From: Eledone cirrhosa
Lineage: Eukaryota
DNA: 64,000 bases
Assembly: GCA_964016885.1 (NCBI GenBank)
Contig: OZ024742.1
Span: 56,358,001 to 56,422,000, forward strand
Direction of reading: 5' to 3'
Part shown: one piece after another, positions 1 through 53,159 of the stretch
Position numbering within the stretch: position 1 is the stretch's first letter
Layout of the letters: each line of letters opens with the position of its first letter
Translations under genes and position numbers: made by a program
Notes under the pieces: model-generated
The model's input: the letters and a program-made list of their open reading frames with translations, nothing else
Told to the model about the DNA's origin: nothing
The model's database searches: none

Positions 1-3000
1 CTCGGACACGGAAGGTCGTTTGTTGGTGCTAGACGTTGGCAGTAGTGGAGGTGCGGCCTTGAGACTGGTCGCCGTCTACTCCCCTTTCGGAGCTGAACGA
101 CCCGACTTCTTCCAGCGTCTGGAGACTTTTCTGGGAACGTCGCGTTCCCTGCTTCTAGCGGGGGACTGGAATGACATCCTAGATGCACGTTGGGACTATG
201 CAGGAGCATGTCCTAATAGACGGGGGTGTAATAGCCTCAAGGGGTTACTCGACCGTTTTAACTTGGTCGATAGATATCGACTAGATTTTCCAACTGTGCC
301 AACCTGGACTTGGACGAACCACAGTGGTCAATCTAGATTGTACTTAGATAGATTCTTAGTTAGAAGTAAGGATAGGGACATATTAAGCTGTCCAGAAATG
401 CTCACGGTTGGCTATACAGATCACAAATTAGTGACCTGCGTAGTCAACCTCGAGAGAACACATAGACAGGGTCCCGGTTACTGGAAACTTAATTTGTCTT
501 TACCGGCAAAAGAGGCTTACAGAGACCGGATTAGCAGATTAGTTAAGGAGAGGTTGACGGGTGCAATCGTCAACAACCGATGGTGGGCATCTCTCAAAAG
601 AGAGATTAGAACAGAATCAATAAGTTATAGCAAGATGTTAGCTGCCGATAGGAATAGGAACGAGAAAGAATTAACAGGTAAATTAGAAGAGGCAATCAAG
701 AGCGAAGGTGTGGCCAGAGTGCTGGCATCGAGGACGGCCTTGAGCCAGTTTTTCGATGCAAAGCACGAAGGCTGCGTCATTCGAAGTAAAATACGTGCTC
801 TAGGTAATGAGGGGGACAAAGCCGTTGGCTGGGCCCGCGTGACAGAATCTAAGAGTGGAAATCTATCCACCATCCGGTCTTTGCAAGACGAGGATGGACG
901 GGTGATCCGGGAGCCTAAGCAGATGTGCGAGGCCTTTCAAAGGCACTTTGCCCGATTGTTCGGAGGAGGCGAGGGTCCGGGCGAGGACGTGGATTTCGGT
1001 CCATACCTCGACGGCCTGCCGCGTCTCTCGAGCGAAGAGGCAGAGTCCTGCGAGGGACCAATCTCGGCTGATGAGATCGGGGATGCGCTGAGCCAATGCA
1101 GCAGACGCAAATCTCCAGGTCTCGATAGTATAACTTACGAACTTTATTTAGCAATGCCGGTCTTCTACTCCGAACTCCTCGAAGCAGTCTACTGCAATTG
1201 GCAGCAGAACGGGAGAATTCCTTGTTCTGTAGCCAAGGGCGTAGTCTCGCTGGGGAGGAAGGATGAGAACAAGGGGGATAGTATAAATCATTTTCGGCCC
1301 ATAACTCTGCTAAACACAGAGTTAAAGATTTTGGACAAGGTGTTAGCAAAGAGGTTGGCGCTTGTCGTGGGTGGCCTGGTGGGAGATGCGCAGACATGTG
1401 CTATCCCATCCAGGTCCATTCACGACAACCTCCACCTCATGCGATACATCATAGAGAGGGTTGGCAACAAACCCGGCTTCGGTGGGGCCCTGATCAACTT
1501 GGATCAGTCTAAGGCGTTCGATAGGGTCGACCATGGTTACCTGGATGCGGTGCTAGCGGCGGCTGGGTTCGGTCCTGTTTTCTGAGGCTGGATCACTGCC
1601 TTACATAGCAACCACATCTGTTCTAGGATCAAGGTGAACGGCTACCTTTCGAAGCCGTTCGAAATCACACAATCCATTCGACAGGGGTGCCCTCTCTCCT
1701 CCCTTCTGTACGTATTGACTCTCGAGCCTTTACTGAGGAAGTTGGAGTTGTTGCAGAGTATCCCCCTGGAACCAGGATTGAGCAAAGCGGTGTCGGCCTA
1801 CGCCGATGACGTAACAGTAATGGAATCGACCGACTCGGAGATCGAGGCGATCGGTACCTTACTGGAGGAATACGAAAGGTTGTCAGGAGCGAAACTGAAC
1901 CGGGAAAAATCAATCGAGCTGCAACTCGGAACGTGGAGAGGCAGACCAATGCCTCCCGACGGTGTCGTCGGACACTGGACGGAGGGCCCGGTGAAGTTGC
2001 TTGGGGTCTGGTTTGGACCGGACCTCCAGGTGGAAAAGAACTGGGGCGAGGTTACGAAAAAGGTGTTTGCACTGACCCAGAAATGAGCCAAGTGTAAGCT
2101 GTCCCTGAAAGGTCGGGCGGAGGTGGCGAACATTTACATAGCGTCCGTCACCTACTACCGCCTGACTGTCGTGCCTTGCCCTAAGGAAACACTCACCACC
2201 ATGGAACGCATGCTCTTTCAATTTCTTTGGAAGAAGCGCCCTCCTATGGTGAGAAGATCCATCTGCTGCCAACAACCTTCGAAAGCAGGGCTGAGGATGC
2301 CGTGGTTGATGATGCGTAGGTACGCATTAAGGCTACGGCACCTACAGGTATTCCTCACTGGTCAACCGGTGTGGGCTCCATTCGTGAGACGAGCCTTTCC
2401 GAGACTCGTCTCGCTCACCGAACTGCAGTCCTGGGTCAAGCAAAGATCCGGAAAACTGGGCGACTGGCACACTGAGTGTGCCCACGCGCTCAGGGCTCTC
2501 TGGCAAGCGGACCCGGCCATCGGTGGTGAATCCACCTCGTCATTCTATAGAGGGCTGGTGGCTAGCAGGGGCGATGACACCCTTGGAGAGTCGCTGGACA
2601 TGGAAGAGGATGAACTGGCCAGCCTGTTCGGTAGGACTTTCGGCCCGGGACCAATGGACAACTTCCAGAAGTCACTGGCCTGGCAGTGCTAACGAGGGGC
2701 TCTACCCGTTCGAGAAAAGCTCTACAGACACGGGGGCCCGGGCAGGGATCCCTCGAAAAAGATTTGCCCTAGATGCGTGTGTCACGAAGAAACCGTTGCG
2801 CACGCATTGGTGCACTGTCCGGGCGTGGCTGATCTGTGGGGCTACGCCGAACGACTGCTGTTGCGGGTGGCGCCGATTCGATTGACCGCCGAGTCCGTGA
2901 TGACAATCAAGCCGCCTCCCCTCTTCACAAAGGAAGCAAAGGTGTTTTTTCTGTGCGTAATAGCCATGTTGAAAGAGGTTGTTTGGTGGACACGATTGAA

Positions 3001-3394
3001 AGGTCTGAGGTCAGGCAACTTCCTCTATGGCCATAGTCTGGTCTACTTCTTCCGATATCACTTCGGAAGAAGGATAAGAATGGAGAGAGAGGTGCTTGGC
3101 CACAGGCAGTTTTTTGAAAGGTGGGTGATAGTGGCGAGAATAGCTCGTGTAAATGGGCATTCTCTGTATACCATCCTGTAGGAAAAGAAGTGAAGGAGAG
3201 GGGAGAACCTTCTCCATGTGCTCCCCGGGCAAAGGATTGCACACTTTTTCGGGGGTGTGTGCAACCCCCATCACGTCCCCTCCCTTTTGAGGTTGTTTTT
3301 GATTATTTTCATTTTATACCCTTTTTACTCGGTTTTATGTAAACTCCCCCTTTGTATTTGTCCCTCTTTTTATACCTTTATGGTAAATAAAGAA
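1..3394 (+). mobile_element. L1/Tx1-like non-LTR retrotransposon copy 1 (ORF2 APE-RT-Cys motif, 3' UTR); runs off the window at the 5' end
   Basis: ORFs 20-1585, 1634-2086, 2123-2692 and 2777-3181 share one frame, split by three point stops (TGA 1583, TGA 2084, TAA 2690). Motifs GDWN, YLDR, TDH (APE); KSPGLD, RPITLLN, KAFDRV, QGCPLS, AYADD (RT); CPRC..HALVHC. AATAAA is followed by (TATC)n. Confidence 0.95.
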
Positions 3395-3427
3395 ATATAT
3401 CTATCTATCTATCTATCTATCTATCTA

Positions 3428-5326
3428 AGGCTTTTGATAGGGTTGACCATCGTTATCTGGATGCTGTGCTCGAGGCGGCAGGCTTCGGACCCCTGTTCAG
3501 GGGCTGGATTGCTGCAATGCACAACAGCAACATCTGCTCAAGGGTCAAGGTGAACGGCTACCTCTCGGAGCCGTTCCATATTACGCGATCCATTCGACAG
3601 GGATGCCCTCTCTCCTCCCTTCTGTACGTACTGACTCTCGAGCCACTGCTGCGGAAGCTGGAGCTATTGCAGGGCATCCCTCTGGAACCGGGACTGCGGA
3701 AAGCGACGTCGGCCTACGCCGACGACGTGACAGTAGTGGTGTCGAGCGCCTCGCAACTCGAGGAGGTCGGCACCTTACTGAAGGAATACGAAAGTTTCAC
3801 AGGAGCGAAGCTGAACCGGGACAAGTCAATCGGTTTGCAACTCGGATCGTGGAGAAGCAAATCGATGCCTTCTGATGGCGTCGTCGGACGCTGGACGGAA
3901 GGACCGGTAAAGCTGCTCGGGGTCTGGTTTGGTCCGGACCTCCAGGTGGAGAAGAACAGGAACGAAGTGACGGCCAAGGTGTTTGCACTCACCCAGAAGT
4001 GGGCCGAGTGCAAACTATCCTTGAAAGGTCGAGCGGAGGTGGCGAACACTTTCATAGCGTCCGCCATCTACTACCGCTTGAGCGTCGTGCCTTGTCCAGC
4101 CAAAACGCTCGCCAAAATGGAGCGCGCGCTCTTCCGATTCCTTTGGAAGAGGCGGGCTCCTTTGGTGAGAAGATCCATCTGCTGCCAACGCCCTTCTAAC
4201 GGAGGGCTGGGGATGCCGTGGTTGACGATGCGCAAACTCGCGCTGAGGCTGCGGTATCTCTACGTATTCCTCACCGCACGACCGGTGTGGGCCCCGTTCG
4301 TGAGGCGAGCCTTCCCACGACTCGTCTTGCTGACCGAGCTGCAGTCCTGGGTCAAGCAAAGACCGAGGAAAATGGGCGACTGGCACATTGAATGTGCTCA
4401 GGCGCTCACAGCCCTCTGGCAGGCGGACCCGGCGATCAGTGGAGACTCCACTTCGTCATTCTATAGAGGGTTGATCCGCAGCAAGTGCGACGACGCGCTC
4501 GGTGAAACTCTAGGCGTAGAGGAAGATGAACTGGCCAGTCTGTTCGGTAGGACCTTCCGCCAGGGACCGATGGACAACTTCCAAAAGTCCCTGGCCTGGC
4601 AGTCCTACCGAGGAGCTCTACTAGTTCGAGACAAGCTCTACAGACATGGGCGCCCGGGCAGGGACCCTGCAAAAAAGATCTGTCCGAGGTGCGTGCGAGA
4701 CGAAGAAACCGTCGCGCACGCATTCATACACTGCCCGGGCCTCACTGACCTGTGGGGCTATGTAGAACGACTATTGTCGCGGGTGGGACCAATCCAGTTG
4801 ACCACCGAGTCCATTGTCATGATCAAACCGCCACCCTCCTTCAAAAACGAAGGAGAGGCGGTTTTCTTTTGTGTGATAGCTATGGCGAAAGAGGTTGTAT
4901 GGTGGACAAGGTTGAAAGGGCTGAGGTCAGACACCTTTCTCTCCGGCCTACAACTGATCCTTTTTTTCAAATACCACTTTGGAAGAAGAATCAGGATGGA
5001 GAGAGAGGTGCTGTACCCCAGCAAGTTTTATGAAAGGTGGGTGAAAGTGGCAAGAATGGCCCGAGTGAATGGGCCTTCTCTCTATATCAGCCTGTAGGTT
5101 GAGGAAAAGGAGGAGGAGAGGAAAGGAGTACAAACTCTTCGTACTCCTGGAGATGAGGGTTGCATATTTTTTTCGGGGGTATGTGTTACCCATATAAACT
5201 GTCTCCCTCTATTGGGGAAAATCGACTAACTTTTTAAATTCCATTTGTGATAACATTTTACACGTTTTTATTGTATGTAAATTTCCCCCTTTGTATTTGT
5301 CCCCTTCTTTTGTGCCCCTGTGAAAT
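3428..5326 (+). mobile_element. Tx1-like LINE copy 2, 5'-truncated within RT
   Basis: Starts at KAFDRVDH directly after the (TATC)n tail of copy 1; open to 5097 (QGCPLS, AYADD, CPRC); similar 3' UTR ending in degenerate TATC repeats. Confidence 0.95.
3466..5097 (+). CDS. C-terminal half of LINE ORF2 (RT palm/thumb + Cys/His motif), uninterrupted but N-terminally truncated
   Basis: 543-aa ORF with QGCPLS, YADD, CPRC/HAFIHC. Confidence 0.85.
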   Translation: MLEAAGFGPLFRGWIAAMHNSNICSRVKVNGYLSEPFHITRSIRQGCPLSSLLYVLTLEPLLRKLELLQGIPLEPGLRKATSAYADDVTVVVSSASQLEEVGTLLKEYESFTGAKLNRDKSIGLQLGSWRSKSMPSDGVVGRWTEGPVKLLGVWFGPDLQVEKNRNEVTAKVFALTQKWAECKLSLKGRAEVANTFIASAIYYRLSVVPCPAKTLAKMERALFRFLWKRRAPLVRRSICCQRPSNGGLGMPWLTMRKLALRLRYLYVFLTARPVWAPFVRRAFPRLVLLTELQSWVKQRPRKMGDWHIECAQALTALWQADPAISGDSTSSFYRGLIRSKCDDALGETLGVEEDELASLFGRTFRQGPMDNFQKSLAWQSYRGALLVRDKLYRHGRPGRDPAKKICPRCVRDEETVAHAFIHCPGLTDLWGYVERLLSRVGPIQLTTESIVMIKPPPSFKNEGEAVFFCVIAMAKEVVWWTRLKGLRSDTFLSGLQLILFFKYHFGRRIRMEREVLYPSKFYERWVKVARMARVNGPSLYISL

Positions 5327-5344
5327 ATATCTATCTCTTTATCT

Positions 5345-8114
5345 GCCTGACGCGTGAAACATAGCCGGTAAGCTTTTTTGTTAATTTCTATGCAAAAAAC
5401 CGAAATAATTGTTTGAAAAAACATATCTTTTTGTAGATTAACCCCCAAGATGAATTGTCAGCTGGGTCGTAAACCCATTTTTCGCCCCTTTAGGGGCGAC
5501 GATTTAATTTAAAAATTGTTTTTAAATATCAAAATTTTGCCATCTATAAAACATGAATAGCTCGGAAAGAACGCTCGAGAACGTCGAGAGAGAGAATAGA
5601 GGTAGAGAGGCAGATATTAACGTTATATCTGCTACTGCCACTACGGACGTCGCCATAGATACGACTGTCAACAAATAGTAAAAAATATTACAACTTGAAG
5701 ATTTTAAAATTTCTACCGTAGAAGCGGAGAGAAATAAAAAAACAAACATGAAAACACAGGAATTAAACCTATTAACATACATACACATGAAAAAGACAAC
5801 ACAACAACTCCACAGATACATCTACACATAAAGTTTCACCTGGTCAAGGAACTGAGATTTCCAACACCGAGGCTAACAACGATAACAACAACAACAACAG
5901 CAATACCACACAAAAAAATGTCTTTCGCTGAAACAGAACAAAAAACAAGATTTTATAAATCTTGACATCTCCAATGCAAGAGATATGCTCCAGCAAGGGA
6001 GAAAATTTGTAACTTTCGAAGAAAAGGGTGGGTTTAAAATTAACTCACCCTTTGAAATAAAAGAAGACAGCTCGAAGATCAGTTATCTTTAGGACTGTGT
6101 CCAATACCACGAGAAAGCCAATATTTGTTAGCCAAGGAGATATAGAAAATACCTTGAAAAAAATTCTAGCAAATATCGAATTTCTCCAACGAGGAAAACA
6201 GTACGGAAGTGTTTCCGTACTGTTTAAAAGCGAGGCACTCGCTCAATAACATTCTGTGACACCAATAGTGTCAAAAGCATTTACCTTTTTCCCTACATAC
6301 ATGGGAAAAAGTACACAAAAAATAAAAATAAAAAATGATTGCCTATTCAGATCACAAATTAGTCGTCTGCTTAGTCAACCGTGATAGAATAATAGAATAC
6401 ATAGACAAGGACCCGGATACTGGAAGCTGAACGTGTCGTTGCCGGCACGTAAAGCTTACAGTGAACGGATAAGTAGACTAGTCAAGCAACAGTTAACGGG
6501 AGCCATCGTCAGCAATAAATTGTGGTACTCTCTCAAGAAAACAATTAGAATAGAATCGATAGGGTTTAGCAGAGATTTAGCCTTAGAGAAAAACAAAATA
6601 GAAAGAGAACTATTAGCCAAGGTAGAGGAGGCACTTAGAAGTGGCAATGCGGCTAGAGTCTTAGCGTCGAGAAAGGCACTGGGCCAGTTCCTTGATGTGA
6701 AACACGAAGGATGCGTGGTCAGAAGCAAAACACGTGCTCTAGGAAACGAAGGAGCGAAAGCTGTCAGCTGGGCCCGAGTGGCGGAGAGGAAAAGTGGCAA
6801 CAGTTCCACAATTCGGTCTTTGAAAGACCAAAACGAACGCCAAGCAAATGTGCGCGGCCTTTCAGCAGCCCTTTGCGCGACTGTTTGAGCAGAACGACGG
6901 TGAGCCGAACGGGGCAATGGACTTTAATTCATACCTCAACGGCCTGCCGCGTCTCTCGAACACGGACGCCGAGTTCTGCAAAAGACCGATCGCGGACACT
7001 GAGATACGGGACGCTCTGGGCCGCAGCGGGAAACACAAGTTCCCCGGTCTAGATCGTCTACGGCATCTTCAGGTATTCCTCACCGACCAACCGGTGTGGG
7101 CACCGTTTGTGAGACAAGCCTTCCCACAACCTGTCTCGCTGACGGAGCTGCAGTCCTGGGTCAAGCGAAGACCGAAGAAGATGGGCGCCTGGCACATTGA
7201 ATGCGCCCAGGCGCTCACAGTCCTCTGTCAAGCGGGCACAGCAATCAGTGGAGACTCCACTTCGACATTCTATAGAGGGTTAGTACTTTACAAGTGCGAC
7301 GACGTGCTCGGGGAGATTCTAGGCGTCGAAGACGACGAGCTCACCAGTCTGTACGGTAGGACTTTCCACCCGGGACCTATGGACAACTTCCAGAGGTCGC
7401 TGGCCTGGCAGTGCTACCGAGGAGCTCTACCCGTTCGTGATAAGATCTACAGGCACGTGTCCAAGATGCGAGCAGGACATTGAAATCGCTTTGCACGCAC
7501 TTTTACACTGCCTGGGCGTACGCGACCTGTGGAACTATGCAGAACAACTGCTGTCGCGTATGGGACAAATCCAGTTGACTGCCGAGTCCATAGTAAGGAT
7601 CAAACCGCCAGCCTCTTTCAAAAACGAAAGAGAGGCGGTTTTCCTCTGTACAGTGGTTATGGTGAAAGAGGTTATATGGTGGACGAGATTGAGAGGACTG
7701 AAGACAGATGATTTTCTCTCCGGACAACAATTGATTCCCTTCTTTAAGTATCACTTTAGAAGAAGAATCAGAGTGGAGAGAGAGGCACTGCACCCCAGTA
7801 AATTTACTGAAGGTGGGTGAATGAAGCAAAAATGGCCCGAGTGATTGGGCCTTGTCTGTTTATAAGCCTGTAGGTTAAAGAAGAGAGCAAAAAGGAAGAG
7901 GGTGCACTTACATAACACGCTCCTGCAGTTCAGGGTTGTTCTATCGACGGGGTATTAAACAACCCATTTGTAGCCTCTCCCCCCTATTGGGGATTCCGAT
8001 TGTTATAATTGTTTGTTTTATATTCTTTTTTTTTACACGACTGTATGTAAAATCCCCGGCATGTGTCTTTGTATTGTCCCCTTTTCTTGTGCGCCCTTGT
8101 GGCAAATAAAGAAA
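5345..8114 (+). mobile_element. Tx1-like LINE copy 3, decayed: probable ORF1 remnant (~5550-6340) and ORF2 with the RT core deleted
   Basis: SDH and GPGYWKLN near 6345-6432; FPGLD fused directly to RLRHLQVF near 7053; C-terminal CPRC region to ~7873; AATAAA then TATC/TGTC repeats. The ORF1 assignment is positional. Confidence 0.88.
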
Positions 8115-8487
8115 TATATCTATCTGTCTATATAACAGTCTGTCTGTTATTATCTGCTTGTTTGTCTGCTTACCTCCCTATTTATCTGTCTGTCTATAAT
8201 AGCGCATACAATTGGTACAAATGGTGAAAACAGATATAAGAGAGCGGAATAAAATAGAAAAAAAATAATAACGATTTTATAGTATTATTACAAGACCAAT
8301 GAAATTGTTTGGCTGAATACACAGAAAAATAGAGATATACTTTGGAAGGTGATTAACATTATATGATTTTTTTCATCAATAACAATATTATATCGATGTT
8401 TTCTTTTACTATATTAGCGATATTTGAAAAACAGTTGCTAAACATAATGTTGTCTAAATATACTTCAAGTTATTCAGTGTGTTATTC

Positions 8488-10339: not shown

Positions 10340-11733
10340 TTCATTTATTGGCCACAAGGACCGATATATAGGGGACAATGCAATAGACTGGGACAGTGGG
10401 GGTTTTACATAAAAATCGAGTAAAAAATAGGAAAACAATAACAAAAAAACAAGAAAAATACAACAATGAAAATTCCCCAATATGGGAAGATAACTGCCCA
10501 GGGTTGATTCAGGTACCCTACCCATCCTGAACAACCCGACGCTTCGAGGGCACTCGGGAAGGGCACTTCTCTCTTCCCCAAATTCACCAGCCTACCGCGC
10601 ATGATCACAGTAGGCTCACTCACAAGGGATATTCTCGCCACATTCATCCACCTTTCAGTAAATATACTAGGGGGCAGCACTTCTCTCTCCACTCTCACTT
10701 TCCTTGCCAAGTGAAATTTGAAAAGGTTGAAGAGGGATTGGCCGAAGAGAAAAGGGTCTGTCTTCAATCTCTCACCCTGGTCCACCATACAACCTCTTTC
10801 GCTACTACAACCAGACAGAGGAAAATTGCCTGCCCTTCCTGGCCAAAAGAAGGCGGCGGGTCGATCTTCACTATGGACTCGACCGATAGCTGGATCCGTT
10901 CTACACGCGACAAGAGCTGTTCGACATAAATCCATAAGTCAGTAATGAAGGGACATTGGATGAGTGCGTGCAGAACGGTTTCGTCGTTCGGCGCGCATCT
11001 CGGGCAGGTCCGTCTGACAACACTTCCATGCCTGTATAGTTTATCTTGAACCGGCAGTGCCGCCCGGTAGCACTGCCATGTGAGGGATTTTTGGAAGTTA
11101 TTCATGGTCCCCGGCTTTAAAGTCCTCCGGAACAGACTGGTTAGTTCGAGTTCGTCGACGCCTAGAGCCTCTCCGAATGCGTCGTCGCACTTGCCCACCA
11201 TTAATCCTATATAGAACTCGAGAGTGGAAGCTCCACTGACAGCATTGCCCGCCTGGTAGAGGGCAGACAGTGCCCGGCATCATTCCAGATGCCGGTCACC
11301 CAGTCTCGGTCTCTTCTTGACCCAGGACTGCAGCTCAGTCAAAGGGACGAGCTGCGGGAAAGCCTGTATGACAAACGGCGACCACACCTGTTTACCGTTT
11401 AGGCAGAATATCTAGAAATGCCGCAACCTTAGTGCATGTCTGTGCATCATTAGTCATGGCATGCCCAGCCCTCCACGTAGAGCATATGAACCGCCTCACC
11501 AACGGAACCTGTCCCCTCCACAAGAATTTGAAGAGTAGCTGTTCCAACTTGGCGAGGCACGAACGGGGGCAAGGGACGACAATCTGGTGGTAGTAGATGA
11601 CGGACGCGATGTACGCGTTCGCCACTTTAGCCCGACCTTTCAGTGATAGCTTCCTCGCAGCGCATTTCTGGGTGAGACTGGCTACCCTGCTCGTCACCTC
11701 GTCTCAATTCTTAATCACCTGGAGGTCTGGTCC
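10340..11733 (-). mobile_element. Tx1-like LINE copy 4, 5'-truncated and frameshifted, ending in (TTA)n-type repeat
   Basis: Minus-strand ORFs 11392-11697, 10764-11201 and 10405-10935 match the ORF2 C-terminus (LSLKGRAKVAN, NFQKSLTWQCYR, CPRC). Confidence 0.92.
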
Positions 11734-19305: not shown

Positions 19306-20198
19306 CTGTCAGTATCAGTATTTAATAATAAAAATATATCACTCCCATCCCAATTTAGATATTTCACGGAAATCGAACTGCTTTTGTTTTCTATCATGAT
19401 TCGAAACTAAGCATGAATACAGATATGATTATTTCATCTCTATTGTTCAGAGAATGAGAAAGGAAAAGCAAGTTTCTTTGTTTTGTATATTTACATATAA
19501 ATCCAACCAGTATTGGTTAATATTGCTTTATAAAATTTTTATTTGCATATTGTTCGAAGGCAACGGAATAATTAGGGATGCAATTAAACATGTATTTCCA
19601 GAGCATTTTCTTATAATGAGGACTGCTATATAATCATCTTTTAGTCTCGAAGCCAACCGCCACAAGCTTCAGAGTAGCCAGAAAAATGTATAGGAAAATA
19701 CTAAAATTTCTGATAAAAGGTTATAATTAAGTGATATCTTTCAAACTTCGGAAATAGAATAATGGAGATAACACGACTTAGAATATCTTCGCTTATTTGC
19801 AAATCGTTATTCAATTTCATATGAATTTGCATAGTTAAATGGCAACTGTTATATACACAATCCGTTATGCTTATGAATTATTAGCTAAAAGAAAACAACT
19901 TTAGGTAAAAAGTATTTTAATTGCATATTATGGACTTAGCCTCTGATGTACATAATAGGAGTATACTTGTTTCTATAATTATTGAATGAAGTTGAAGATT
20001 TACATATTCCGAGGATATGTGAGCAAACCATGTTTAAAATATGAAAATAGTTCCACTAGAACAGTGCAAATAGATTGAATAACTTATTGTAGGTATACTT
20101 CAAATAAATGTAATTATAATATGTACACATACAAACATACAAACAGACAAATATATTCACAAACATTTGACACACACACACACACATATATATAATAT

Positions 20199-20288
<90 letters not shown>

Positions 20289-20315
20289 TATATATAATAT
20301 ATATATATATAATAT

Positions 20316-20362
<47 letters not shown>

Positions 20363-20374
20363 TATATATAATAT

Positions 20375-20442
<68 letters not shown>

Positions 20443-20449
<7 letters not shown>

Positions 20450-20639
20450 CACACAGATACACGCGGACACACACATATATACATGAATGCATCCGCACCC
20501 AACTGTGAGTTAAGGGTGCCAACTTCACCGATGTTGCTCAATGAGCAACATCGGTGAAGTTGGCACCCTTAACTCACAGTTGGGTGCGGATGCATTCATG
20601 TATATATGTGTGTGTCCGCGTGTATCTGTGTGTTTCTAA
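20443..20639. repeat. Perfect palindrome, 98-bp arms, 1-nt spacer at 20541, abutting (TA)n
   Basis: TTAGAAACACACAG...GTTGCTCA a TGAGCAAC...CTGTGTGTTTCTAA. Confidence 0.95.
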
Positions 20640-20908
20640 ATATATTAATAACTCCCTCTGGTCGAGCAATCTTTGAAGTGTGGGGACAACTGGAAAGCTT
20701 CCATTACTCATACTTCTCGCCTTCTTCACTACCTCTTCTACGGCCTCGATATGAATACCCCCTCCGCCTCCGTGGTATCTTCTTCGTGGTTATAGGAGGC
20801 TTAGCTCTGTTTCTCGACCGTTATATCGCGTGACTATCTCCCCCTCCGCCTTTTGGGATTCTTTCTCACGTCGTGTAGACGCGTTCTTGAGACTAGTAAA
20901 ATGAGGTA

Positions 20909-20996
20909 TCCTCTTGATAAGTTGGCAGACCTCGCAAGGACTCTATATCTTTGATATATTGTTTTTGTTTATGCCACGAAACTACGTAGTCGAGGA
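20909..20996 (+). ncRNA. Type I hammerhead ribozyme, U3-A8 core variant
   Basis: UCCUC-UUGAUAA-GU(U)GGCA...UGCCAC-GAAAC-U-ACGU-A-GUC-GAGGA: 5-bp stem I, closed stem II, stem III with palindromic ACGU loop, GUC triplet (cut after 20991). Confidence 0.8.
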
Positions 20997-21093
20997 ATTT
21001 AGGAGCAGTTTAGGTATGATACATTTTATTACTAATTATATCTAAATGTTTCTTCTCTCTTCATAATGTATATATATATATATATATATATAT

Positions 21094-21209
21094 AGTTTTA
21101 ATATAGAAGAGCTTCTACGGGACTAGAACTGTTTCATCAGGGAGCTGCCTGATGATTTCTCACGAATGAAACAGTTCTAGTCCTGTAGAAGCTCTTCTAT
21201 ATTAAAACT
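21094..21209. repeat. Fold-back element next to (TA)n with a degenerate HHR core in its right half
   Basis: Arms of ~43 bp (AGTTTTAATATAGAAGAGCTTCTAC.../...GTAGAAGCTCTTCTATATTAAAACT); CUGAUGA-UUUCUCACGAAU-GAAAC-AGUUCUA-GUC at 21149-21182; stem I imperfect. Confidence 0.7.
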
Positions 21210-22082: not shown

Positions 22083-22209
22083 CCCAGACGGACGTCTCGT
22101 TTCATTATAGGATTCCTACAATTTGGGTGAAATTATGCCAATGTATGTAGGAGCTTGTATACCATCAATAGATATATATTCAAGTGGGCTCCTATAATTC
22201 ATCAGTGGG
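22083..22209 (-). ncRNA. Type I hammerhead ribozyme with long branched stem II (copy A)
   Basis: Minus strand CCCA-CUGAUGA-AUUAUAGGA...UCCUAUAAU-GAAAC-GAGACGUCC-GUC-UGGG; lies in repeat ~21955-22315, homologous to ~34545-34930. Confidence 0.88.
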
Positions 22210-23209
22210 TGCCCCAATAATATTAATATTGATAATCTAACCAACATCAGTATTTAGCGATAATCACCATCCTCTGTGCCTGAGGTATCTGTCAGGTAGC
22301 CAGTCCAGCAGTTTTAAAGAAGTGCTCAAACTGATTCAAAAGATGAGGAAGTAAATTACCGCCAAAAAAACAATACATGCGCATGACAATGAATTCTGAA
22401 AGGAATTCAGGCCACGTGCTAAGAACTCAATTGGAAATTGAAAAAAGATCTGTGTGTACAACATTTGATGACACACACAGATATTTTCTCGGGCAAAATA
22501 ACAGAATATGCATATATATATATATAGATTTACATTTATATTCATATATATATATATGGTGGCTGCCAACTCGTTTTCGAGTACGGCCACTACTTTATAT
22601 CCATGTAGGAGAACACCTACCGATGGGCTGAACGAGTGTGACCTTTTAGTCCAGCCAGCGACTTGAAAACTCTGGTACAAACACTACACTTGTGTCAATT
22701 ATTGACACATAGTACTGGGCCCATGTGACGACAAGTGCAGAGAGATCTCCCGGTATAAAGCAATGCCTATGCCGTGAAGCTTTTATAGTGAGAAAATGCA
22801 CTGCACAAAGCCAGTCCCACTTTCTTAACCAAGATGATATTTACCAAAAAGAAGAACAAGTCAACATCATTGGATACCATCAGAGGTTGCAGGTGTTATA
22901 TCAGAGTTTTCCTTCTCCTAGAATTCTGCCTTGACAAAGGCTAAGGGGTCATCTCTCCCGGTGTTTTTGGATGGCCATTGACTCTTAAGAGCTCTTTTGG
23001 CCTTTGACAGGTTTTGTTTTTAGTCCTGCAGGATGTTCAAAGTCAGCCTCTACACCAAGAAACCTTGGTGGGGTTGCCAGTTTAGTCGCCAACGACGCGA
23101 CTATGAGACAGGTTGTACTGGGATACATGTTACCAGTAGCACCAACTGGTATGTATATATATATATATATACATACATACATAGATATCTATATATATAT
23201 ATATTAATA

Positions 23210-23647: not shown

Positions 23648-23884
23648 ATACCTTCCTGCCAGATGATTGAACGTCTGAAAGTATATACTTTCCTTATGCA
23701 TATTAACGGCTGAGCAGCCTAATTTGCATATCGAGTGAGTTTAAGTAAAAGCCGTACTACGAGTGAGAAATGAAATTCCGTTGCATTTTTTCCGTGTATA
23801 TATATATATACATACATACATATCTATTTATCTCTCTCTCTCTATATATTTAGAAAAATGTTCAAGACCCCGACGACAGGACTC

Positions 23885-24065
23885 TAGCTGTCGAAACGGC
23901 TTGAACTCTGCAGTTGGGGTTTTGAAAATTTTCCTATTACCCACTCTACTACCCTAAGTATTGAGTACTCTGGTACGTTATGGTCCACCTGGTTCCTTAC
24001 AACACTTCTTTCGTTATCTATATATGTATATATATATATACATACATATCTCTCTATCTCTCTCG

Positions 24066-24150
<85 letters not shown>

Positions 24151-24198
24151 TATACATATGTATGTATGTATATATATATATATATACATGTATGTATG

Positions 24199-24257
<59 letters not shown>

Positions 24258-24308
24258 GTATATAGGTATTTATATATTTATATATGTATATAGGTATTTA
24301 TATATTTA

Positions 24309-24344
<36 letters not shown>

Positions 24345-24351
24345 TGCATGC

Positions 24352-24426
<75 letters not shown>

Positions 24427-24442
24427 TAAATATATAAATACC

Positions 24443-24495
<53 letters not shown>

Positions 24496-24503
24496 ATATA
24501 TAT

Positions 24504-24540
<37 letters not shown>

Positions 24541-24552
24541 AATATTTAAATA

Positions 24553-24616
<64 letters not shown>

Positions 24617-24850
24617 CATGTATATATATATACATACATACATATATATACATATATATATATATATAGCGAGAGAGATAGATAGATATGTATGTATATA
24701 TATATATACATATATAGATAACGAAAGAAGTGTTGTGAGGAACCAGGTGGACCACAACGCACCAGAGTACTCAATACTTAGGGTAGTAGAGTGGGTAATA
24801 AGAACATTTTCAAAACCCCGACTGCAGAGTTCAAGCCGTTTCGACGGCAG
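23885..24850. repeat. ~1-kb inverted duplication centred near ATGCATGCAT (24344-24353), including mirrored microsatellite interruptions
   Basis: 23890-24070 is the reverse complement of 24665-24845; inner ATAGGTATTTATATATTTATA is mirrored by TATAAATATATAAATACCTAT. Confidence 0.85.
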
Positions 24851-25011
24851 AGCAATAATGATAAATGTGAAGAGTAAAATCCAAAGAGGGCTCGATAAGG
24901 ATAAATATATATCAAATATATAAGAACCCTAGAGCAAATATTTATTTAAATAACAGCTTAAAGTTTAAGGAAATAATCGCTGCTTTCACCCTTAATGAGA
25001 TCTTCTGAACC

Positions 25012-32910: not shown

Positions 32911-34682
32911 AAAATGATACATGACATACCCCGACATATTAGATGGTTAAGATTTAGTCATGGTAGTGATTAACTTATGACAAAACTCAATATTTATACC
33001 CTAATATTGAGAATGTGAGAAAACGTAATACAAACAATAGAGAGAGTGTGAGTAATATATTTTAAGAAATACATGGCATCAATATACCAGCTATAGAATT
33101 TTTAATTTTTAAAAACTACTAGAGAAAGAGGAGGGAAAGGAAAGCATATAAGAAGAAACAGCTGATGTGATAACTTATTTAGTATTTAGCTTGAGAAGAT
33201 AGATGAAAGATGATTAAAGAGAGAGAGAGACAAAGGGGAGTAATTTATGTTCAAGTTTCTACACACACATATTCTTATATAGTATAGTTGGCGGTTAATT
33301 TTCAAAATATTTAATTTATGTTATTTCAGGGTAAAGAATCAAATTTTAGGTATTTGTATTAATATTATAATATAATTATGTTAAATTTCTAAAATTCAAA
33401 TTTTATGAAAACAAATTTAAAGGATTTACGAAACCCGAGAAAGAAAGAAAATATATATATATAATGTTTTATATCCCCACGAAGGTAATCTTTACCAAAA
33501 TTACTTATAATATTGACAACAGTTTCTATAATATAATTTATAAGATATTTATAGCTATAACTATTAAAGAATGTATTGTTAAATAGTTTGAGTGCCTAAA
33601 GTATCGACCGGCCTTATAATTAAACTTAAAGAAGTCAAAATTTTCAACTATATATATGTATTGATCATAATAAACCAAGCTTATAGTTTATTATTTATTC
33701 ATATATTGTATTAAGTAAATCATTATATAAGTTCGACCTTCCAGGGAAAACCAAACACTTATAATAATAAATAATGTCATTTGTGTGTTTAAATTATTTA
33801 TAAATGTACGATTATGTTATTACACTAGATAAAGATATTTGTACACACTATATATATATATAATTATATGTATTAATGAAACGGTATACATTTAATAAAG
33901 AATAATAATTATAATCATTGTTAATAATGCTATAATTGTAGTTTTACCTCCAGTTCAGTGGAGAGATAGACCAATATTTGTCAGCTATTATGGTTTGTTA
34001 AATATACATAAAAAGACAAAGTCCCCCAAAACCATCTCAAAATGAGTAAAATATATACATATATATATAAAAAATATGCAAACGCATGAATGATCCACAG
34101 TTCAAATTATAATCAGTAAATTTACAATCTAAACTATATATTTAAAACAGAGACAGAAAAATAAAGATCTGAATCAAAGTTAAAAATATCCAAAAAATCA
34201 TAGGGTATGCATATCTATCAAGTAAACAAGTTATCGAACAAGTGTCATTCATTCAAACATTAATTCCATTATAAATGATTAGAAGATAAAGCATTATTAG
34301 AGTTTTATAAACCGTTAGGACTTATATGTACAGCAGTTGATAATAGACGTCGAAAACCAGGCTTCATTGCTTACTGTTTTTTCCTGACTTTTTGCGACGC
34401 TTTATGAATATATATATATATATATTTATATATACATATAAATATATACATATATATTTATATGTATATATATATATATACATATATATTTATATATTTA
34501 ATACAATAACAGAGATAGTTTAAAGCTAAACTCTGACTGGTAACCATCTCACTCAACAAACATTAGGTTATATTAAAATATAAACCCAATTTAAGTGTTT
34601 GGGGTGCTAACAATATGTATAATGTGGAAAGACCAGTTGTATTATTTTATGAGATATAATTAAAGTTAAAGTACTTCTCTCT

Positions 34683-34808
34683 TTCCAAACAATTGTTTCA
34701 TTATAAATTTTCTACAAGTTTGGGAGAATGTTTCCAGTTTATGTAGAAGCCTAATATATATTCATGTAAGAATATATTTAGGTGGGCACTTATAAATCAT
34801 CAGTGGAA
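34683..34808 (-). ncRNA. Type I hammerhead ribozyme with long branched stem II (copy B)
   Basis: UUCCA-CUGAUGA-UUUAUAAGU...AUUUAUAAU-GAAAC-AAUU-GUU-UGGAA; covaries with 22083-22209. Confidence 0.85.
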
Positions 34809-35103
34809 GCCCATTAAACATTGATATAAGAAAACAATTTCTTACCGCTGTCAAAAATCATGTCCGTAAAGTTGCTCTCTCTCACCTCGAATGATCGCCA
34901 AATTTGAAATTTGAAATTCCAGCAGTTTTTGACTGAGGAAGTATCATAGCGACACGAAGCGGGAAGGGGAGACAACCCACGATCCACGAAATGAGGAAAA
35001 AAAAATAATATACACGCGGGTTAATTAGTTATATATTAGTTATATATTAGTTATATTTTTATATATATATTTTAAAATGTGTGTAATCCTTGGTACAGTT
35101 AGG

Positions 35104-35357
35104 TATATTAAGACAGGGGGGAAGAAAAAATGGCTTCACTTGTGCTTTCAACAAATTTATTTTCTTCACAAAATCCAAAAAGAATTTTTCTTAAAAAAAA
35201 TTATTTTGTAAATTAAGTTGTTGGTTGAACCAACCACCAACCAACCAACAACTTAATTTATAAAATAATTTTTATTAAGAAAAATTCTTTTTGGATTTTG
35301 TGAAGAAAATAAATTTGTTGAAAACACAAGTGAAGCCATTTTTTCTTCCCCCCTGTC

Positions 35358-35365
<8 letters not shown>
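35104..35365. repeat. Fold-back element with ~125-bp arms and an (AACC)n-like centre, abutting (TA)n
   Basis: TATATTAAGACAGGGGGGAAGAAAAAATGGCTTCACTTGTG... mirrored by ...CACAAGTGAAGCCATTTTTTCTTCCCCCCTGTCTTAATATA. Confidence 0.9.
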
Positions 35366-35439
<74 letters not shown>

Positions 35440-36039: not shown

Positions 36040-37273
36040 GGAGTGTCAACTAATACCAAATTGCATACGTATATCATTGCTGAAATTACGGACAGTGTCA
36101 ACAAGCACAGCAAACTCCTTCTCACTCTTCCCGAAGAGCTTAAGATCGCGCATGAAGAGGAGGTGATTGATGGCAAGCTCTCCTTTTCTCAACTTGTATC
36201 CTGCTCTTACTTTTCGCAGTATAATGGTCAGGGGTATCAGGGCAAGGACAAACAACAGAGGGGACAAACTATCTCCCTGGAAGATACCTCTCTTGATCTT
36301 CACGCCTCCCAAGGATTCTCCACCCGATGTTAACTCTGTTTTCCAGGACTTCATACTTTTGCTCAACAACTGTCTGATGTTATCTGCCACCTTGAAGATC
36401 TCTAGGCTTTTGGTTATCCAAGAAAGAGGTACCATGTCGAATGCCTTTTTGTAGTCTATCCATCCCATGGCAAGACCAGTGTGTCTCCTCTTGCAATTCC
36501 TCATTACCATCTTATCAATAAGTAACTGGTCCTTTGTACCACGGGACTTCTTTCGGCATCCTTTCTGTTCGTCCGGTAACAAGTTGTTTATGTGGAGCTG
36601 ATGGTAGATTTCCTCAGACACAATGCTTGTTAACAGATTCCACATTACCGACAGACATGTGATAGGTCTATAGTTGGCAACATCATTACCCTAGATTCGG
36701 TCTTTCATTACCAGAACTGTGGTACCTTTTGTCAACCACTCTGGTACCTCACCCGACATCAAGCAGTCATTGAACATGGTTGTCAGTTTCGGGTGGAGGG
36801 ATGTTATATTTTTACTCCAATACCCCTGCACACCATCTGGGCCTGGTGATTTCCAGTTGTTTAGTTTTTTGGCCTGCCCTTTAAGAGTTTCAACTGTGAT
36901 ACTCAAATCAGTTTGTTGGAGTGCCTGTTCACTAATCTCCTTTTGTACTGTCTCAATCCACACTGCCTGATCATTATGTTCAACATCCTACTCCCATATT
37001 CCTCCCCAGAATGTCTTAGTCTGTTCCGCCTCAGGGATCAAGTCGTTGCCTCTTTCTTTCCCTTCAAGCTGTCCAAACAATATCTTCTGGTTGTTGTCGA
37101 ACATGCGGTTCTGTCTATACTGACTGACTCTGCTCTCATATCGCCTAATCTGTGCACTCTTTGCTACAATGCGTTGCTTCAGTTCCTCTATGATAATATT
37201 TAGCTTTTTCCTCCTAGTTTTGTACTTTATTTCCAGTCTATGTTTAGTGTCTATGTTTTGTAGTGTTCCATTC
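36040..37273 (-). mobile_element. R4/Dong-like non-LTR retrotransposon RT remnant
   Basis: [74 protein letters not shown] (catalytic DD damaged); in-frame stops; truncated at both ends. Confidence 0.88.
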
Positions 37274-37274: not shown

Positions 37275-40200
37275 CGAACATAAGACTGGTAAAAATAGCA
37301 CAGAAACAATACACAAACATTAAAACGAATTTCCCCAACGCAGTTGGTGATTTCAGAGACCTAGGAGGGACTCTAAACCGGAGAGTATATTCGGACATAA
37401 TCATTAGAAGAGCCGACGACCAGCCGAAGGGACGATTCAACGGTCCCTTCACCAGACGATCAAGTGAAAAGGGATGGTGAAACCATCCTTCCTCTACGAA
37501 AAGTACGGTAAGTGGTCTTTCCCATCTTTTCCACTCCATTTTAAACATGACCTCACTCAGAATAGGCAGCATAAATGCGCATGGCTTAGGGTCGTCATGG
37601 AAGCAGGGTCACCTGCTCAACGACCTCAGGTCACTAAACATAGATGTAGTGGCCATCAGCGAGACCAGAATCTCCGAAGCACGGGCCTTCACACCGATCT
37701 TCGGCGGCTATGATGTGTACGCATCTCCCAGCCGTCCTGGATCGGAGGGAGGTGTTGCTGTGCTTTTTCGGTGAGGCTTGGATCTCGCCATACAGGGCCA
37801 TCTTCCTGGACCCAGAGGGTAAGTTGGTGGTGCTGGACGTGACCAGCGGAGACGGGCAAGCTTTCAGGCTAGTGGCCGTCTATGCCCCGACAGTAGCAGG
37901 GCGGCCTGATTTCTTCCGGCGTCTGGAGACCTTTCTTGGAACGTCCCGCTCTTTAGTGTTAGTGGGCGACTGGAACGGGATCTTAGATGCACGCTGGGAC
38001 GGTGTGGGATTAGTGGATAGGGGAGGAGGGTGCAAGAGTCTCACCAACCTGCTGAGGCGTTTTGAACTGTCTGACAGGGAACCGATTGGATTTCCCGAAT
38101 GTACCAATGTGGACTTGGACAAATCGCATAGGGTCATCCAGATCATATCTAGATAGAGTATTTTGTAGGGAAATAGATAGGTCTAGCATAGGCTGTCCAC
38201 AATTCAAGATAGTAAGCTACACGGACCACAAATTCGTGATCTGTGTGCTTGACTTAGATAGGCTTCATAGACGAGGACCCGGCTACTGGAAGTTAAACGC
38301 GTCCTTACCAGCGCGCAAGGCCTACAGAGACCGGATTAGCGAACTAGTTAAGCGGGCGTTGAGGGTAGCCATCGTCAACAACAAGTGGTGGTTTGCTCTG
38401 AAAAGAGCAATTAGAATAGAGTCCATTAGGTTTAGTAAGGCTTTAGCAATAGAGAAAAATAGAGCAGAGGGAGAACTAGTTAGAAAATTAGACGAGGCGC
38501 TTTGCAAAGGCATCGCGACCGACGTATTGCGGCGAAATTGGCCCTTGACCAATTCTTCAATGCAAAGCACGAAGGCTGCGTTGTCAGAGCTAGGGTGCGT
38601 GCTCTCAGACACGAGGGGACGAAAGCCGTTCAATGGGCCCGAGTGGCGGAGGCGCGTCGTGGCAACAAAGCCTCGATCCGGTCTTTGGTGGACCACGACG
38701 GGCGCATGCTACTCGATCCCGGGCAAATGTGTGAAGCTTTTCAGCGACACTTCGCTCAACTGCTCGGGGGCAGCGGCGGGCCGGATCGAGAGATGGACTT
38801 TAGTGTCTACCTCGACGGACTGCCGCGGCTCTCGGCCACTGAGGCGGAGTGTTGCGAAAAGCCGATAACAGCCGCTGAAGTACGGGAGGCAATGACTGGC
38901 TGCACAAGGGGTAAATTGCCTGGTGGTTTTGATAGTCTGCCCTATGAACTTTACGTACAAATGCCAGACTTGTTCGGAGGCCTCTTGGCGGACGTCTACT
39001 GCAACTGGCAACAGAACGGGAGAATTCCCAGTTCTGTGAGCCGAGGAGCGGTGGCACTGCTGAGAAAAGATCCGAACAAGGGGGATAACATAGATAATTT
39101 CCGGCCCATAAACACAGAGTTCGAAATTTTGGCCAAGGTGCTAGCAAAGAGCTTGGCGCTTGTCGTTGGTGGTCTGGTGGGAGAGGCGCAGACATGCGCC
39201 ATTCCCGACAGATCCATCCACGACAACCTCCACCTCATGCGATACATCGTAGAGAGGGTAGCTAGGGAACCTGGCACGGGTGGGTCCTTGATAAATTTAG
39301 ATCAGTCGAAAGCTTTCGATAGGGTCGACCATCGTTACCTAGCGGCAGTCCTGAGGGCGGCTGGCTTTGGGCCCGTCTTCAGAGGCTGGATCGCTGCCAT
39401 GCACAGCGACATCTGCTCTGTGGTGAGAGTGAACGGCCACCTGTCGGAACCGTTCAACATCATGCGCTCGGTCCGCCAAGGATGTCCCCTCTCGTCCCTC
39501 TTGTACGTATTGACTCTCCAGCCATTACTGCACAAACTGGAGACGTTGAGGGGCGTCCCGCGCGAACTAGGATGCGGAAGATCCGTCTCAGCATATGCGG
39601 ACGATGTCACCGTAGTGGTGTCGAACGCCAAACACATCGAGGCGATCGGCACTACACTAAGAGAATACGAAGCGGTGACAGGAGCAATGATCAACCAGGA
39701 AAAGTCAGTGGGCCTGCAGCTCGGCACCTGGAGAGGCAGGTCCATGCCGTCCAACAGCGTCGTCGGACGCTGGACGGACGGACCGGTTAGTTTGCTAGGG
39801 GTCTGGTTCGGTCCGGACCTCCAGACGGACAAAAACTGGGACGAGGTGACGAGCAGGGTGGCTTCTCTCACCCAGAAATGGGCGGAGTGGAAGCTATCCC
39901 TGAAAGGTCGAGCGGAAGTGGCTAACGCGTACATCGCGTCTGTCATCTGCTACCGCCTGACCGTCGTACCTTGTCCTAAGCCTCGCCTGACTGCGCTGGA
40001 GAGTTTGCTCTTTCGCTTTTTGTGGAAGGGACGCGCTCCGATGGTCAGGCGGTCCATCTGTTGTCAACACCCGCTACGTGGAGGGCTGGGCATGCCGTGG
40101 CTGATGATGCGCAGGCACGCGCTCAGGCTACGACATCTCCACCTCTTCCTCGACGGTGATCAGGTGTGGTCGCCGTTTGCTAGGCGCGTATTTCCCCAGC

Positions 40201-41209
40201 TCGTTTCCTTGACGGAGCTGCAGTCCTGGGTCAAGCGAAGACCGAGAGGGAGCGCCTGGAGACTGGAATGTCTTCAGGCGCTCACAGCCCTCGACCAATC
40301 GGGCAATGTGATCGGTGGAAACTCCACCTCGGCGTTCTATAGAGGATTAGTGGAGGGGAAGAGCGACGACGTACTTGGGGAAACTCTAGGCGTCGACGAA
40401 AATCAACTAGCCAATCTCTTCGGAAGAACTTTCGGGCCGGGACCTATGGACAACTTCCAGAAATCTCTGGCCTGGCAGTGCTACCGAGGAGCCTTGCCAG
40501 TTCGGGATAAACTCTACAGGCATGGAGGTGCCGTCAGCCGGGCATGTCCGAGATGCGCGCAGGGCGACGAAACCGTCCTGCACGCACTCGTCCAGTGTCC
40601 GAAAATCGCTGACTTGTGGGTTTATGTCGAACACCTGCTGTCGCGTCTAGGACGGATCCGGCTATCATCTGAGTCCATCGTGAGGATTGCCCCGCCCTCC
40701 TCCTTTAGCCGGGAAGGGCAGGCAGTTTTTATCTGTCTGGTGGCCATGGCGAAAGAGATAGTATGGTGGACACGTTTGAAAGGGCTGAAGACGAGCACTT
40801 ACCTCTTCGGTGATGCTCTGATTGACTTTTTCAAATTTCATTTGAAAAGGAAAATCAGAGTAGAGAGGGAAGTGCTCTCTTCCCAGCATTTTGTTGAAAG
40901 ATGGGTGAGAGAAGCAAGAATGGCCCGAGTGAATGGGCCTACTCTGAGTATATATCTGTAAATTAAAGGTGGAAAACTGGGAGAGGGCACTTGCCTTGGT
41001 GGTCAGGGTCATTGTGGCTTTTTACTGGGCTTTCTCCACAAATGTCCCTCCGAAGTCTCCCCCCTATTGGAGAATTGTTCATTGTTATTTTTTGTTACAT
41101 CCTCTGTTTTTGTTTTTTACACGCAGAAATGCCCATTTGTACCGTCCTGCATTGTCCTGCACTGTCCTTAATGTCTACTTTATGTAAACCCTTGTGGTTA
41201 ATAAAGAAA

Positions 41210-52799: not shown

Positions 52800-52928
52800 A
52801 AAGTTCTATTTAAAATTGTTGGGATACAACAAGTAAATATTTTTATAACTGATATAAAGCACTCGGCAAGTATTTGGAGTAGATATACGATATTAATAAA
52901 TGGAAACTATATTTATAAAACCATATTT

Positions 52929-52991: not shown

Positions 52992-53125
52992 ACAATATAT
53001 AACAGTTTTACAAATCAGCTTTGACGTACCCTTTTAAAATGCAACCATTATTTTTGGAAGCCATCTGAAATATGTATACTGAAATAAATATGGTTTTATA
53101 AATATAGTTTCCATTTATTAATATC

Positions 53126-53159
<34 letters not shown>

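What the first reader, a model, noticed from the sequence alone, without database searches (positions are those of the whole stretch)
20909..20996. U3-A8 catalytic-core variant hammerhead (UUGAUAA)
All three stems and GAAAC..GUC are well formed, but the core reads UUGAUAA instead of CUGANGA. The C3-G8 tertiary pair is replaced by compensatory U3-A8, a known rare functional variant. A compensatory double change argues against neutral decay. Stem II also carries a ~45-nt loop. It lies in a GC-richer segment beside a perfect 197-bp palindrome.
Basis: partly seen in the sequence, partly recalled or inferred. Interest (0 to 1): 0.72.

Follow-up and report, generated by a model that had tools for sequence, protein, structure and literature searches.

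The report
Known hammerhead variant in jumping repeat
This is one of about 8,000 copies of a hammerhead-shaped, predicted self-cutting RNA motif carried by a non-coding 591-base jumping repeat in an animal genome; its swapped core base pair is the family norm and is already published, and the neighbouring palindrome is likely a by-product of how Penelope-type enzymes paste the repeat in.

Summary
The motif is real: a type I hammerhead with core UUGAUAA at 20909-20996. It is one copy of a non-coding 591-bp tandem repeat with about 8,000 ribozyme copies. U3-A8 is fixed: 7,228 exact copies, 9 U3C and 9 A8G single mutants, no C3-G8 family member. It is shared by subfamilies down to about 72% identity, with an invariant core and a compensatory stem I change. 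U3-A8 is published for Penelope-associated hammerheads (PMC4209133) and other natural ones (PMC3088659). Corrections: stem III is a self-complementary 10-mer predicted to need a dimer; the 'loop' holds a conserved hairpin and a candidate pseudoknot strand; the palindrome is the junction of an inverted, truncated arm. Insertions sit in (TA)n with two fixed 3' ends (+80, +245); 39 of 45 two-armed insertions use one of each, none the same end twice. Best reading: a non-LTR retrozyme mobilised by a Penelope-like element, likely from one monomeric (circular) RNA. Cleavage, expression and the helper are not shown. The scan noted this family before on other DNA (e1-8667491, e1-8673856).

The parts
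20186..20445 (.). (TA)n-rich tract on the left of the insertion (target microsatellite)
   Evidence: sequence, span
20443..20540 (-). Inverted, 5'-truncated left arm (0.18 unit); its 3' end is the 'long' terminus, unit position +245 from the cleavage site
20443..20639 (.). Perfect 197-bp palindrome, formed by the left arm back-to-back with the start of the right arm; both arms carry the same rare A>G (20462 and 20620)
   Evidence: G in 5 of 237 motif hits; overlapping loci not removed
20538..21071 (+). Right arm, 0.9 of the 591-bp unit, 99% identical to other copies; ends at the 'short' terminus (+80)
20758..20850 (+). Candidate internal promoter: two GC-box-like motifs (20758-68, 20840-50) and a TATA-like motif (20790-97); motif names recalled, not tested
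   Evidence: sequence; largely conserved among subfamilies in the conservation map; function inferred
20902..20907 (+). UGAGGU, 5' strand of a candidate pseudoknot with 20929-20934; can instead pair with the 5' strand of stem I as an inhibitory hairpin
   Evidence: (94% of cells paired, little covariation)
20909..20996 (+). Type I hammerhead; stem I = 20909-13 with 20992-96
   Evidence: U-A, U-G, C-G at 20912/20993
20914..20920 (+). Core UUGAUAA, U3 (20914) with A8 (20919)
20921..20977 (+). Stem II (20921-27 with 20972-77; bulge 20923, U or C in the family), enclosing the candidate pseudoknot strand 20929-34 and the extension hairpin 20935-67
20978..20991 (+). GAAA, self-complementary stem III ACUACGUAGU (20981-90) and C17 (20991); predicted cut between 20991 and 20992
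   Evidence: cut site inferred from hammerhead numbering
21068..21094 (.). (TA)n tract on the right of the insertion

Best explanation
The motif is the U3-A8 hammerhead of a non-coding 591-bp repeat family that has inserted thousands of times into (TA)n tracts and is likely a retrozyme copied in trans by a Penelope-like reverse transcriptase/endonuclease. SHOWN: family, copy number, fixed and conserved core, head-to-tail units, inverted truncated arms, two fixed 3' ends used one per arm, and variants shared by both arms. INFERRED: multi-unit loci are transcribed. Two ribozymes pair through the palindromic stem III (a UGAGGU/ACCUCG pseudoknot probably docking stems I and II) and cut after GUC, releasing a unit-length RNA that probably circularises. 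In the monomer the 5' strand of stem I is sequestered, so it would not re-cut. A helper enzyme nicks both strands of a (TA)n tract and primes from both ends on the same RNA, once at +80 and once at +245. It runs up to about 5 times round, and the two cDNAs are joined back-to-back. The window copy is such an insertion with only one ribozyme, likely a dead end, and its palindrome is the joint.
For: 764 exact 22-mers, 8,071 stem-III 15-mers, 7,228 U3-A8 18-mers, controls 0. C3-G8 search: 21 hits = 9 C3-A8, 9 U3-G8, 3 unrelated to the unit, control 3. 0 of 20 core/palindrome positions not fixed by the search pattern vary in >=3 loci, against 20% and 35% elsewhere (P about 7e-4 if independent). Stem I covaries (C-G in 3 of 20 rows, two from one insertion), and the extension hairpin keeps pairing through many one-side changes. 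39 of 45 complete two-armed insertions have one +80 and one +245 end, none has the same end twice; 32 of 35 single arms end at one of the two, followed by TA. Run X2 shows TA loose ends at the same two places. Of variants private to one of 66 insertions, 22 are in all covering units (14 across both arms), 85 in one unit only, and 1 in some. A>G in ribozyme sense is 7 of 22 vs 5 of 86 (p=0.002). These are Penelope hallmarks (PMC8557442, PMC11167929). Three Penelope-like families with long open frames exist in the genome.
Against: No cleavage or RNA evidence. The helper was not found: 90 loci of three Penelope-like families share no sequence with the unit beyond microsatellite-like matches and one nested copy. 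The gap between the two ends (165 nt) is far longer than the 30-40-bp Penelope tail. The active fold is not the predicted minimum in any of 20 copies. The pseudoknot has almost no independent covariation. 'Private' means private among 66 sampled insertions, so homogeneous unsampled tandem donors could mimic a circle. 33 non-private variants were present in only some units and were not resolved one by one (many lie at an ambiguous stretch, unit 108-122). 6 of 45 two-armed insertions have a non-standard end. In Anolis Poseidon, ribozyme cleavage was not needed for insertion in vitro (PMC11167929).
Confidence: 0.8

Rival explanations
1. Same Penelope-mobilised element, but the template is an uncut linear multimeric transcript. 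The hammerhead is kept as a protein-binding or protein-assisted structure, or cuts for another purpose, and no circle is needed.
For: Anolis Poseidon inserts from unprocessed RNA and its ribozyme cuts only with protein (PMC11167929, parts 1-2 read). Metazoan PLE hammerheads cleave weakly in vitro (PMC4209133). The active fold is negligible in the predicted circular monomer (stem I pair probability about 0.002). Donor arrays are >99% homogeneous anyway.
Against: The all-or-one distribution of private variants (22 all-unit, 11 of them in >=3 units; 85 single; 1 partial) and arms of up to 4.8 units fit one monomer better. Strict conservation of catalytic nucleotides fits selection for catalysis.
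Confidence: 0.3
2. A DNA-level satellite or foldback element amplified by unequal crossing-over or DNA rolling-circle, with a relic inactive hammerhead.
For: Tandem arrays and palindromes exist; no RNA evidence is in hand.
Against: Dispersed short arrays, fixed 3' but variable 5' ends, the one-of-each end rule, (TA)n targeting, strand-asymmetric variant spectra (C>T 22 vs G>A 7, p=0.015) and core conservation.
Confidence: 0.05
3. A locus-specific compensatory mutant with a local role (for example regulating a host transcript together with the palindrome).
For: None beyond the motif.
Against: The 141 bases are 100% identical in all 40 scored of 894 candidates; the palindrome is an insertion junction.
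Confidence: 0.02

Closest known systems
Hammerheads of metazoan Penelope-like elements, including the U3-A8 variant found with S. mansoni Cercyon (Cervera & de la Pena 2014, PMC4209133; parts 1-2 of 4 read)
   Same: Type I, U3-A8 core pair, short stem I (5 bp), G10.1-C11.1, palindromic stem III implying a dimer, bulge inside stem II (as in D. virilis Penelope), motifs close together on opposite strands.
   Different: Here the motif sits in a non-coding tandem unit, has a 10-nt palindromic stem III, a 44-nt structured insert in stem II and a candidate pseudoknot. Copies are young and homogeneous rather than highly variable.
Metazoan non-LTR retrozymes (Cervera & de la Pena 2020, PMC7229834: passages and section 14 read; Li et al. 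2026, bioRxiv 10.64898/2026.07.22.740005: part 1 of 5 and passages read; bioRxiv supplements closed)
   Same: Non-coding head-to-tail units each with a type I hammerhead, thousands of copies, co-existing with PLEs, proposed PLE origin.
   Different: 591 nt (above the 170-400 nt of the 2020 paper, inside the 51-972 bp of the preprint); U3-A8 core; circRNA not shown here. The two-armed, one-of-each-end structure was not seen in the passages read.
EN+ Penelope-like element insertions (Craig et al. 2021, PMC8557442, passages; Frangieh et al. 2024, PMC11167929, parts 1-2 of 4)
   Same: 5'-truncated partial tandems, an inverted truncated copy, a 'tail' at one end reflecting two internal RT start sites, both strands nicked and extended, AT/(TA)n targeting, hammerhead near the 3' end.
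   Different: No ORF; tail 165 nt rather than 30-40 bp; no homology to the three PLE families tested.
Natural U3-A8 and pseudoknotted hammerheads (Perreault et al. 2011, PMC3088659, passages)
   Same: States that C3-G8 covaries to U3-A8 in several natural ribozymes, that such ribozymes were shown active in vitro, and that about 40% likely use a stem I-II pseudoknot.
   Different: Different context; this ribozyme was not assayed.

Membership tests
Type I hammerhead ribozyme | Conserved core (3-9, 12-14, 15.1-16.1, H17) with a Watson-Crick 3-8 pair | tested here: met
   UUGAUAA/GAAA/A-U/C17 with U3-A8; invariant at 20 free positions
Type I hammerhead ribozyme | Three helices, stem I open, with comparative support | tested here: met
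   94% of cells paired against 31-52% for slid controls; compensatory change in stem I; stem III stable only as a dimer
Type I hammerhead ribozyme | Match to an Rfam hammerhead model | tested here: not met
   None at gathering score or E<=10; plausibly due to the variant core and long stem II (inference)
Type I hammerhead ribozyme | Site-specific self-cleavage | not testable with these tools
   Needs an in vitro assay
Non-LTR retrozyme | Head-to-tail non-coding units, each with a type I hammerhead | tested here: met
   591-bp period, arms up to 4.8 units; no frame >=100 aa within the element in the window apart from TA-run frames. The window copy itself has only one ribozyme.
Non-LTR retrozyme | Unit size in the reported range | tested here: inconclusive
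   Above 170-400 nt (PMC7229834), within 51-972 bp (2026 preprint)
Non-LTR retrozyme | Expression as circular RNA | not testable with these tools
   Only contigs of runs of unrecorded kind were available; indirect support from shared variants
Non-autonomous element mobilised by a Penelope-like element | 5'-truncated tandems, inverted copy, two fixed 3' ends, (TA)n targets | tested here: met
Non-autonomous element mobilised by a Penelope-like element | Tail of 30-40 bp between the two ends | tested here: not met
   165 nt (+80 to +245)
Non-autonomous element mobilised by a Penelope-like element | Homology to the pLTR of an autonomous PLE in the genome | tested here: inconclusive
   None in 90 loci (30 best of 150 scored each) from three families; other PLE families were not tested

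The most novel reading that the evidence does not exclude
A dimeric Penelope reverse transcriptase copies one circular, A-to-I-edited 591-nt RNA from both ends of a (TA)n break, each subunit obliged to a different start site 165 nt apart. The circle is made by a dimer-dependent U3-A8 hammerhead with a branched stem II and a pseudoknot/hairpin switch that is on in multimers and off in the monomer, and that Rfam does not detect despite about 8,000 copies.
Probability: 0.4. Interest if true: 0.6.

Novelty: new member of a known kind. Interest (0 to 1): 0.3.

Why it matters
The core swap itself is published, so the finding as written is ordinary. The family has some value. It is a young, abundant natural U3-A8 ribozyme under purifying selection in an animal. 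CUGANGA descriptors cannot match it and Rfam missed it, so retrozyme counts may be underestimates. Its insertions give countable genomic evidence (one-of-each end rule, both arms from one template) for how Penelope enzymes copy ribozyme RNAs, a route proposed in PMC4209133 and made testable by the in vitro system of PMC11167929. The scan has already noted this for the same and sister families.

Tried and rejected
Rfam: no hammerhead (only sub-threshold miRNA-like hits, judged chance). Simple folding does not single out the motif. The first C3/G8 test (0 hits) covered only the minor bulge-U subfamily; it was repeated more widely. The conservation tally was confounded by how loci were picked; it was replaced. 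A pattern for relatives with a different stem I (30 of 64 hits examined) gave 29 family copies (mutated, truncated or older) and 1 unrelated hit, but no new family. The helper search in three PLE families found no shared sequence. Sequencing runs: no RNA holder listed; run kind unrecorded, so nothing is concluded on expression. The sigma-70 scan is irrelevant to an animal element and was ignored. Two papers recalled from memory (on tolerance of the 3-8 pair, and on dimeric Penelope hammerheads) were not held and are not relied on. PMC7151607 (one passage) added nothing. Literature searches for this family or its architecture found no description; subscription journals, Repbase/Dfam and supplements were not seen, so absence from print is not shown. 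The look-up of earlier findings by sequence and near place was blank; by words it was not. Target-site duplications could not be defined inside (TA)n.

Full report
OBSERVATION. Stem I is UCCUC (20909-13) with GAGGA (20992-96). The core is UUGAUAA (20914-20). Stem II is GU[U]GGCA with UGCCAC, followed by GAAA, ACUACGUAGU and C17 at 20991. The perfect palindrome is 20443-20639. Three details need correcting. Stem III is a self-complementary 10-mer that is unstable as a hairpin (+1.5 kcal/mol) and stable as a dimer (-12.9). The 44-nt 'loop' holds a 13-bp hairpin and a strand complementary to the 5' flank. The hammerhead fold is not the predicted minimum, and Rfam does not detect it.

THE FAMILY. 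A search of the own genome (3.0 Gb) with 141 bases gave 894 candidates; all 40 scored were 100% identical, spaced 591 bp apart and often back-to-back. Pattern counts gave 764 copies with the window's bulge letter, 7,228 U3-A8 18-mers and 8,071 stem-III 15-mers, each with control 0. The canonical pattern with one mismatch gave 21 hits: 9 C3-A8, 9 U3-G8 and 3 with no similarity to the unit (control 3). In 12 of the 13 such insertions with another ribozyme in view, the other copy kept U3-A8, so these are mostly one-off changes. In 60 further loci, 117 of 119 readable cores were UUGAUAA (11 of 130 hits had no readable core, mostly truncated). Subfamilies down to about 72% identity over the ribozyme also carry U3-A8. 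In contigs of 4 of the 6 listed runs (three coded organisms), no change at U3 or A8 was listed; one row of that table was not shown. The main difference, T>C at L003:953, is the bulged base of stem II.

SELECTION AND STRUCTURE. To avoid bias from how loci were picked, I scored the 5' core only in the 40 loci picked by the 3' pattern, and the 3' core and palindrome only in the 62 picked by 5' patterns. 0 of 20 positions vary in three or more loci, against 101 of 496 and 172 of 496 elsewhere. On 20 diverged copies, 94% of cells pair, against 31-52% for slid controls. Stem I goes U-A, U-G, C-G (C-G in 3 rows, two from one insertion). The extension hairpin keeps pairing mainly through one-side changes. 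The candidate pseudoknot UGAGGU/ACCUCG is conserved, and persists in the subfamily whose stem I became CCCC/GGGG, but it has almost no independent covariation, so it remains a prediction. In the predicted circular monomer, GAGG instead pairs with the 5' strand of stem I and the active fold is negligible, which would give an off state.

INSERTION ANATOMY. Measured from the cleavage site, copies end 3' at +80 or +245, followed by (TA)n, while 5' ends vary. Of 46 two-armed insertions, 1 was cut by a locus edge. Of the other 45, 39 have one end of each kind (one insertion is present twice), 6 have a non-standard end, and none has the same end twice. Of 35 single arms, 17 end at +80, 15 at +245 and 3 elsewhere. 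The window copy follows the rule: a 0.18-unit left arm ends at +245 and a 0.9-unit right arm at +80. The palindrome is their joint, and both arms share a rare A>G (20462 and 20620). Among 66 insertions at least 93% identical to the reference, private variants were in all covering units (22, 14 across both arms), in one unit (85) or in some (1); 33 non-private variants were partial and unresolved. A>G in ribozyme sense is enriched among the all-unit class (7 of 22 vs 5 of 86, p=0.002), and single-unit changes are strand-biased (C>T 22, G>A 7, p=0.015; T>C 17, A>G 5, p=0.19). This fits one monomeric, sometimes edited, RNA template and errors of reverse transcription; that reading is inference. 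I ran these tests after seeing earlier notes that proposed circles and editing for sister families; the editing test was prompted by e1-8803865.

HELPER. Penelope-like families with GIY-YIG-type C-termini and long open frames are abundant. One has its own canonical hammerhead-like core about 210 nt before its (TA)n end. None of the three families tested shares sequence with the unit, so the helper is unidentified.

COMPARISON. PMC4209133 (parts 1-2 of 4 read; one search found it as the only paper with 'U3-A8') reports U3-A8 in about 1,300 S. mansoni motifs found through the Cercyon PLE. It also reports palindromic stem III, dimer dependence, weak in vitro activity and a proposed circular template. 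PMC3088659 (passages) reports natural U3-A8 and common pseudoknots. PMC7229834 (passages, section 14) and the 2026 preprint (part 1 of 5, passages; supplements closed) define non-LTR retrozymes and link them to PLEs. PMC8557442 (passages) and PMC11167929 (parts 1-2 of 4) describe inverted truncated copies, tails, two RT start sites and AT targeting. The element works like these. It meets the sequence criteria of a type I hammerhead and a retrozyme, fails the Rfam match and the 30-40-bp tail, and could not be tested for cleavage or circles.

VERDICT. A real, conserved U3-A8 hammerhead in a new 591-bp member of a known kind of element. I found no description of the family in five literature searches, but the scan has noted it before on other DNA. 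Interest 0.3; the mechanistic footprint is the most useful part.

Noticed in passing
L071:4236 (+), L098:747, L086, L058, L063, L134, L154, L165: A second repeat family, unrelated in sequence, with a U3-A8 hammerhead (core UUGAAAA, short stem II, palindromic stem III), also two-armed in (TA)n. Its ends lie near +65-80 and +141-145, and its long end shares the letters TTTCTA with this family's long end.
   Followed up: partly
window 22090-22210 (-): Canonical-core type I hammerhead-like motif with a 95-nt stem II insert; its region resembles 34409-34812 at 72%.
   Followed up: no
window 56763, 52990, 32903 and 14237 (-): Further CUGANGA hammerhead-like motifs of AT-rich repeat families; the loci sampled hold many such families (36 hits in 618 kb, overlaps included).
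   Followed up: no
window 60349-63469 (+) and 53807-54172 (-): Broken Penelope-like remnants with GIY-YIG-type C-termini (Pfam GIY-YIG E=0.004, below cut-off, for the first).
   Followed up: partly
window 1-8145, 10605-11733, 37650-40961; 36046-36690 (-): Several copies of a LINE-type element with RVT_1 and zf-RVT domains (825-aa frame at 38484-40961), and a fragment of another RT.
   Followed up: no
window 21094-21209, 23882-24852, 35026-35439, 50501-51284, 52880-53134, 56655-56907, 57325-58118: Many imperfect palindromes around (TA)n, probably similar two-armed insertions of other families.
   Followed up: no
runs X1 and X5 laid on L003:568-1749: In two coded organisms the unit appears as a single 620-621-nt contig (unit plus 30, as for a closed loop in the assembly graph), with 3 differences at depth about 8; tandem DNA and circular RNA cannot be told apart.
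   Followed up: no
run X6 laid on L003:1301-1451: A depth-2 contig with many T>C changes (A>G on the opposite strand), which could be hyper-editing of inverted-arm duplex RNA, an older copy or an error.
   Followed up: no
L142-L171 downstream of the ORF: One abundant Penelope-like family shows no canonical hammerhead core after its ORF, only a GUUGAUGG...CGAAA-like motif.
   Followed up: no
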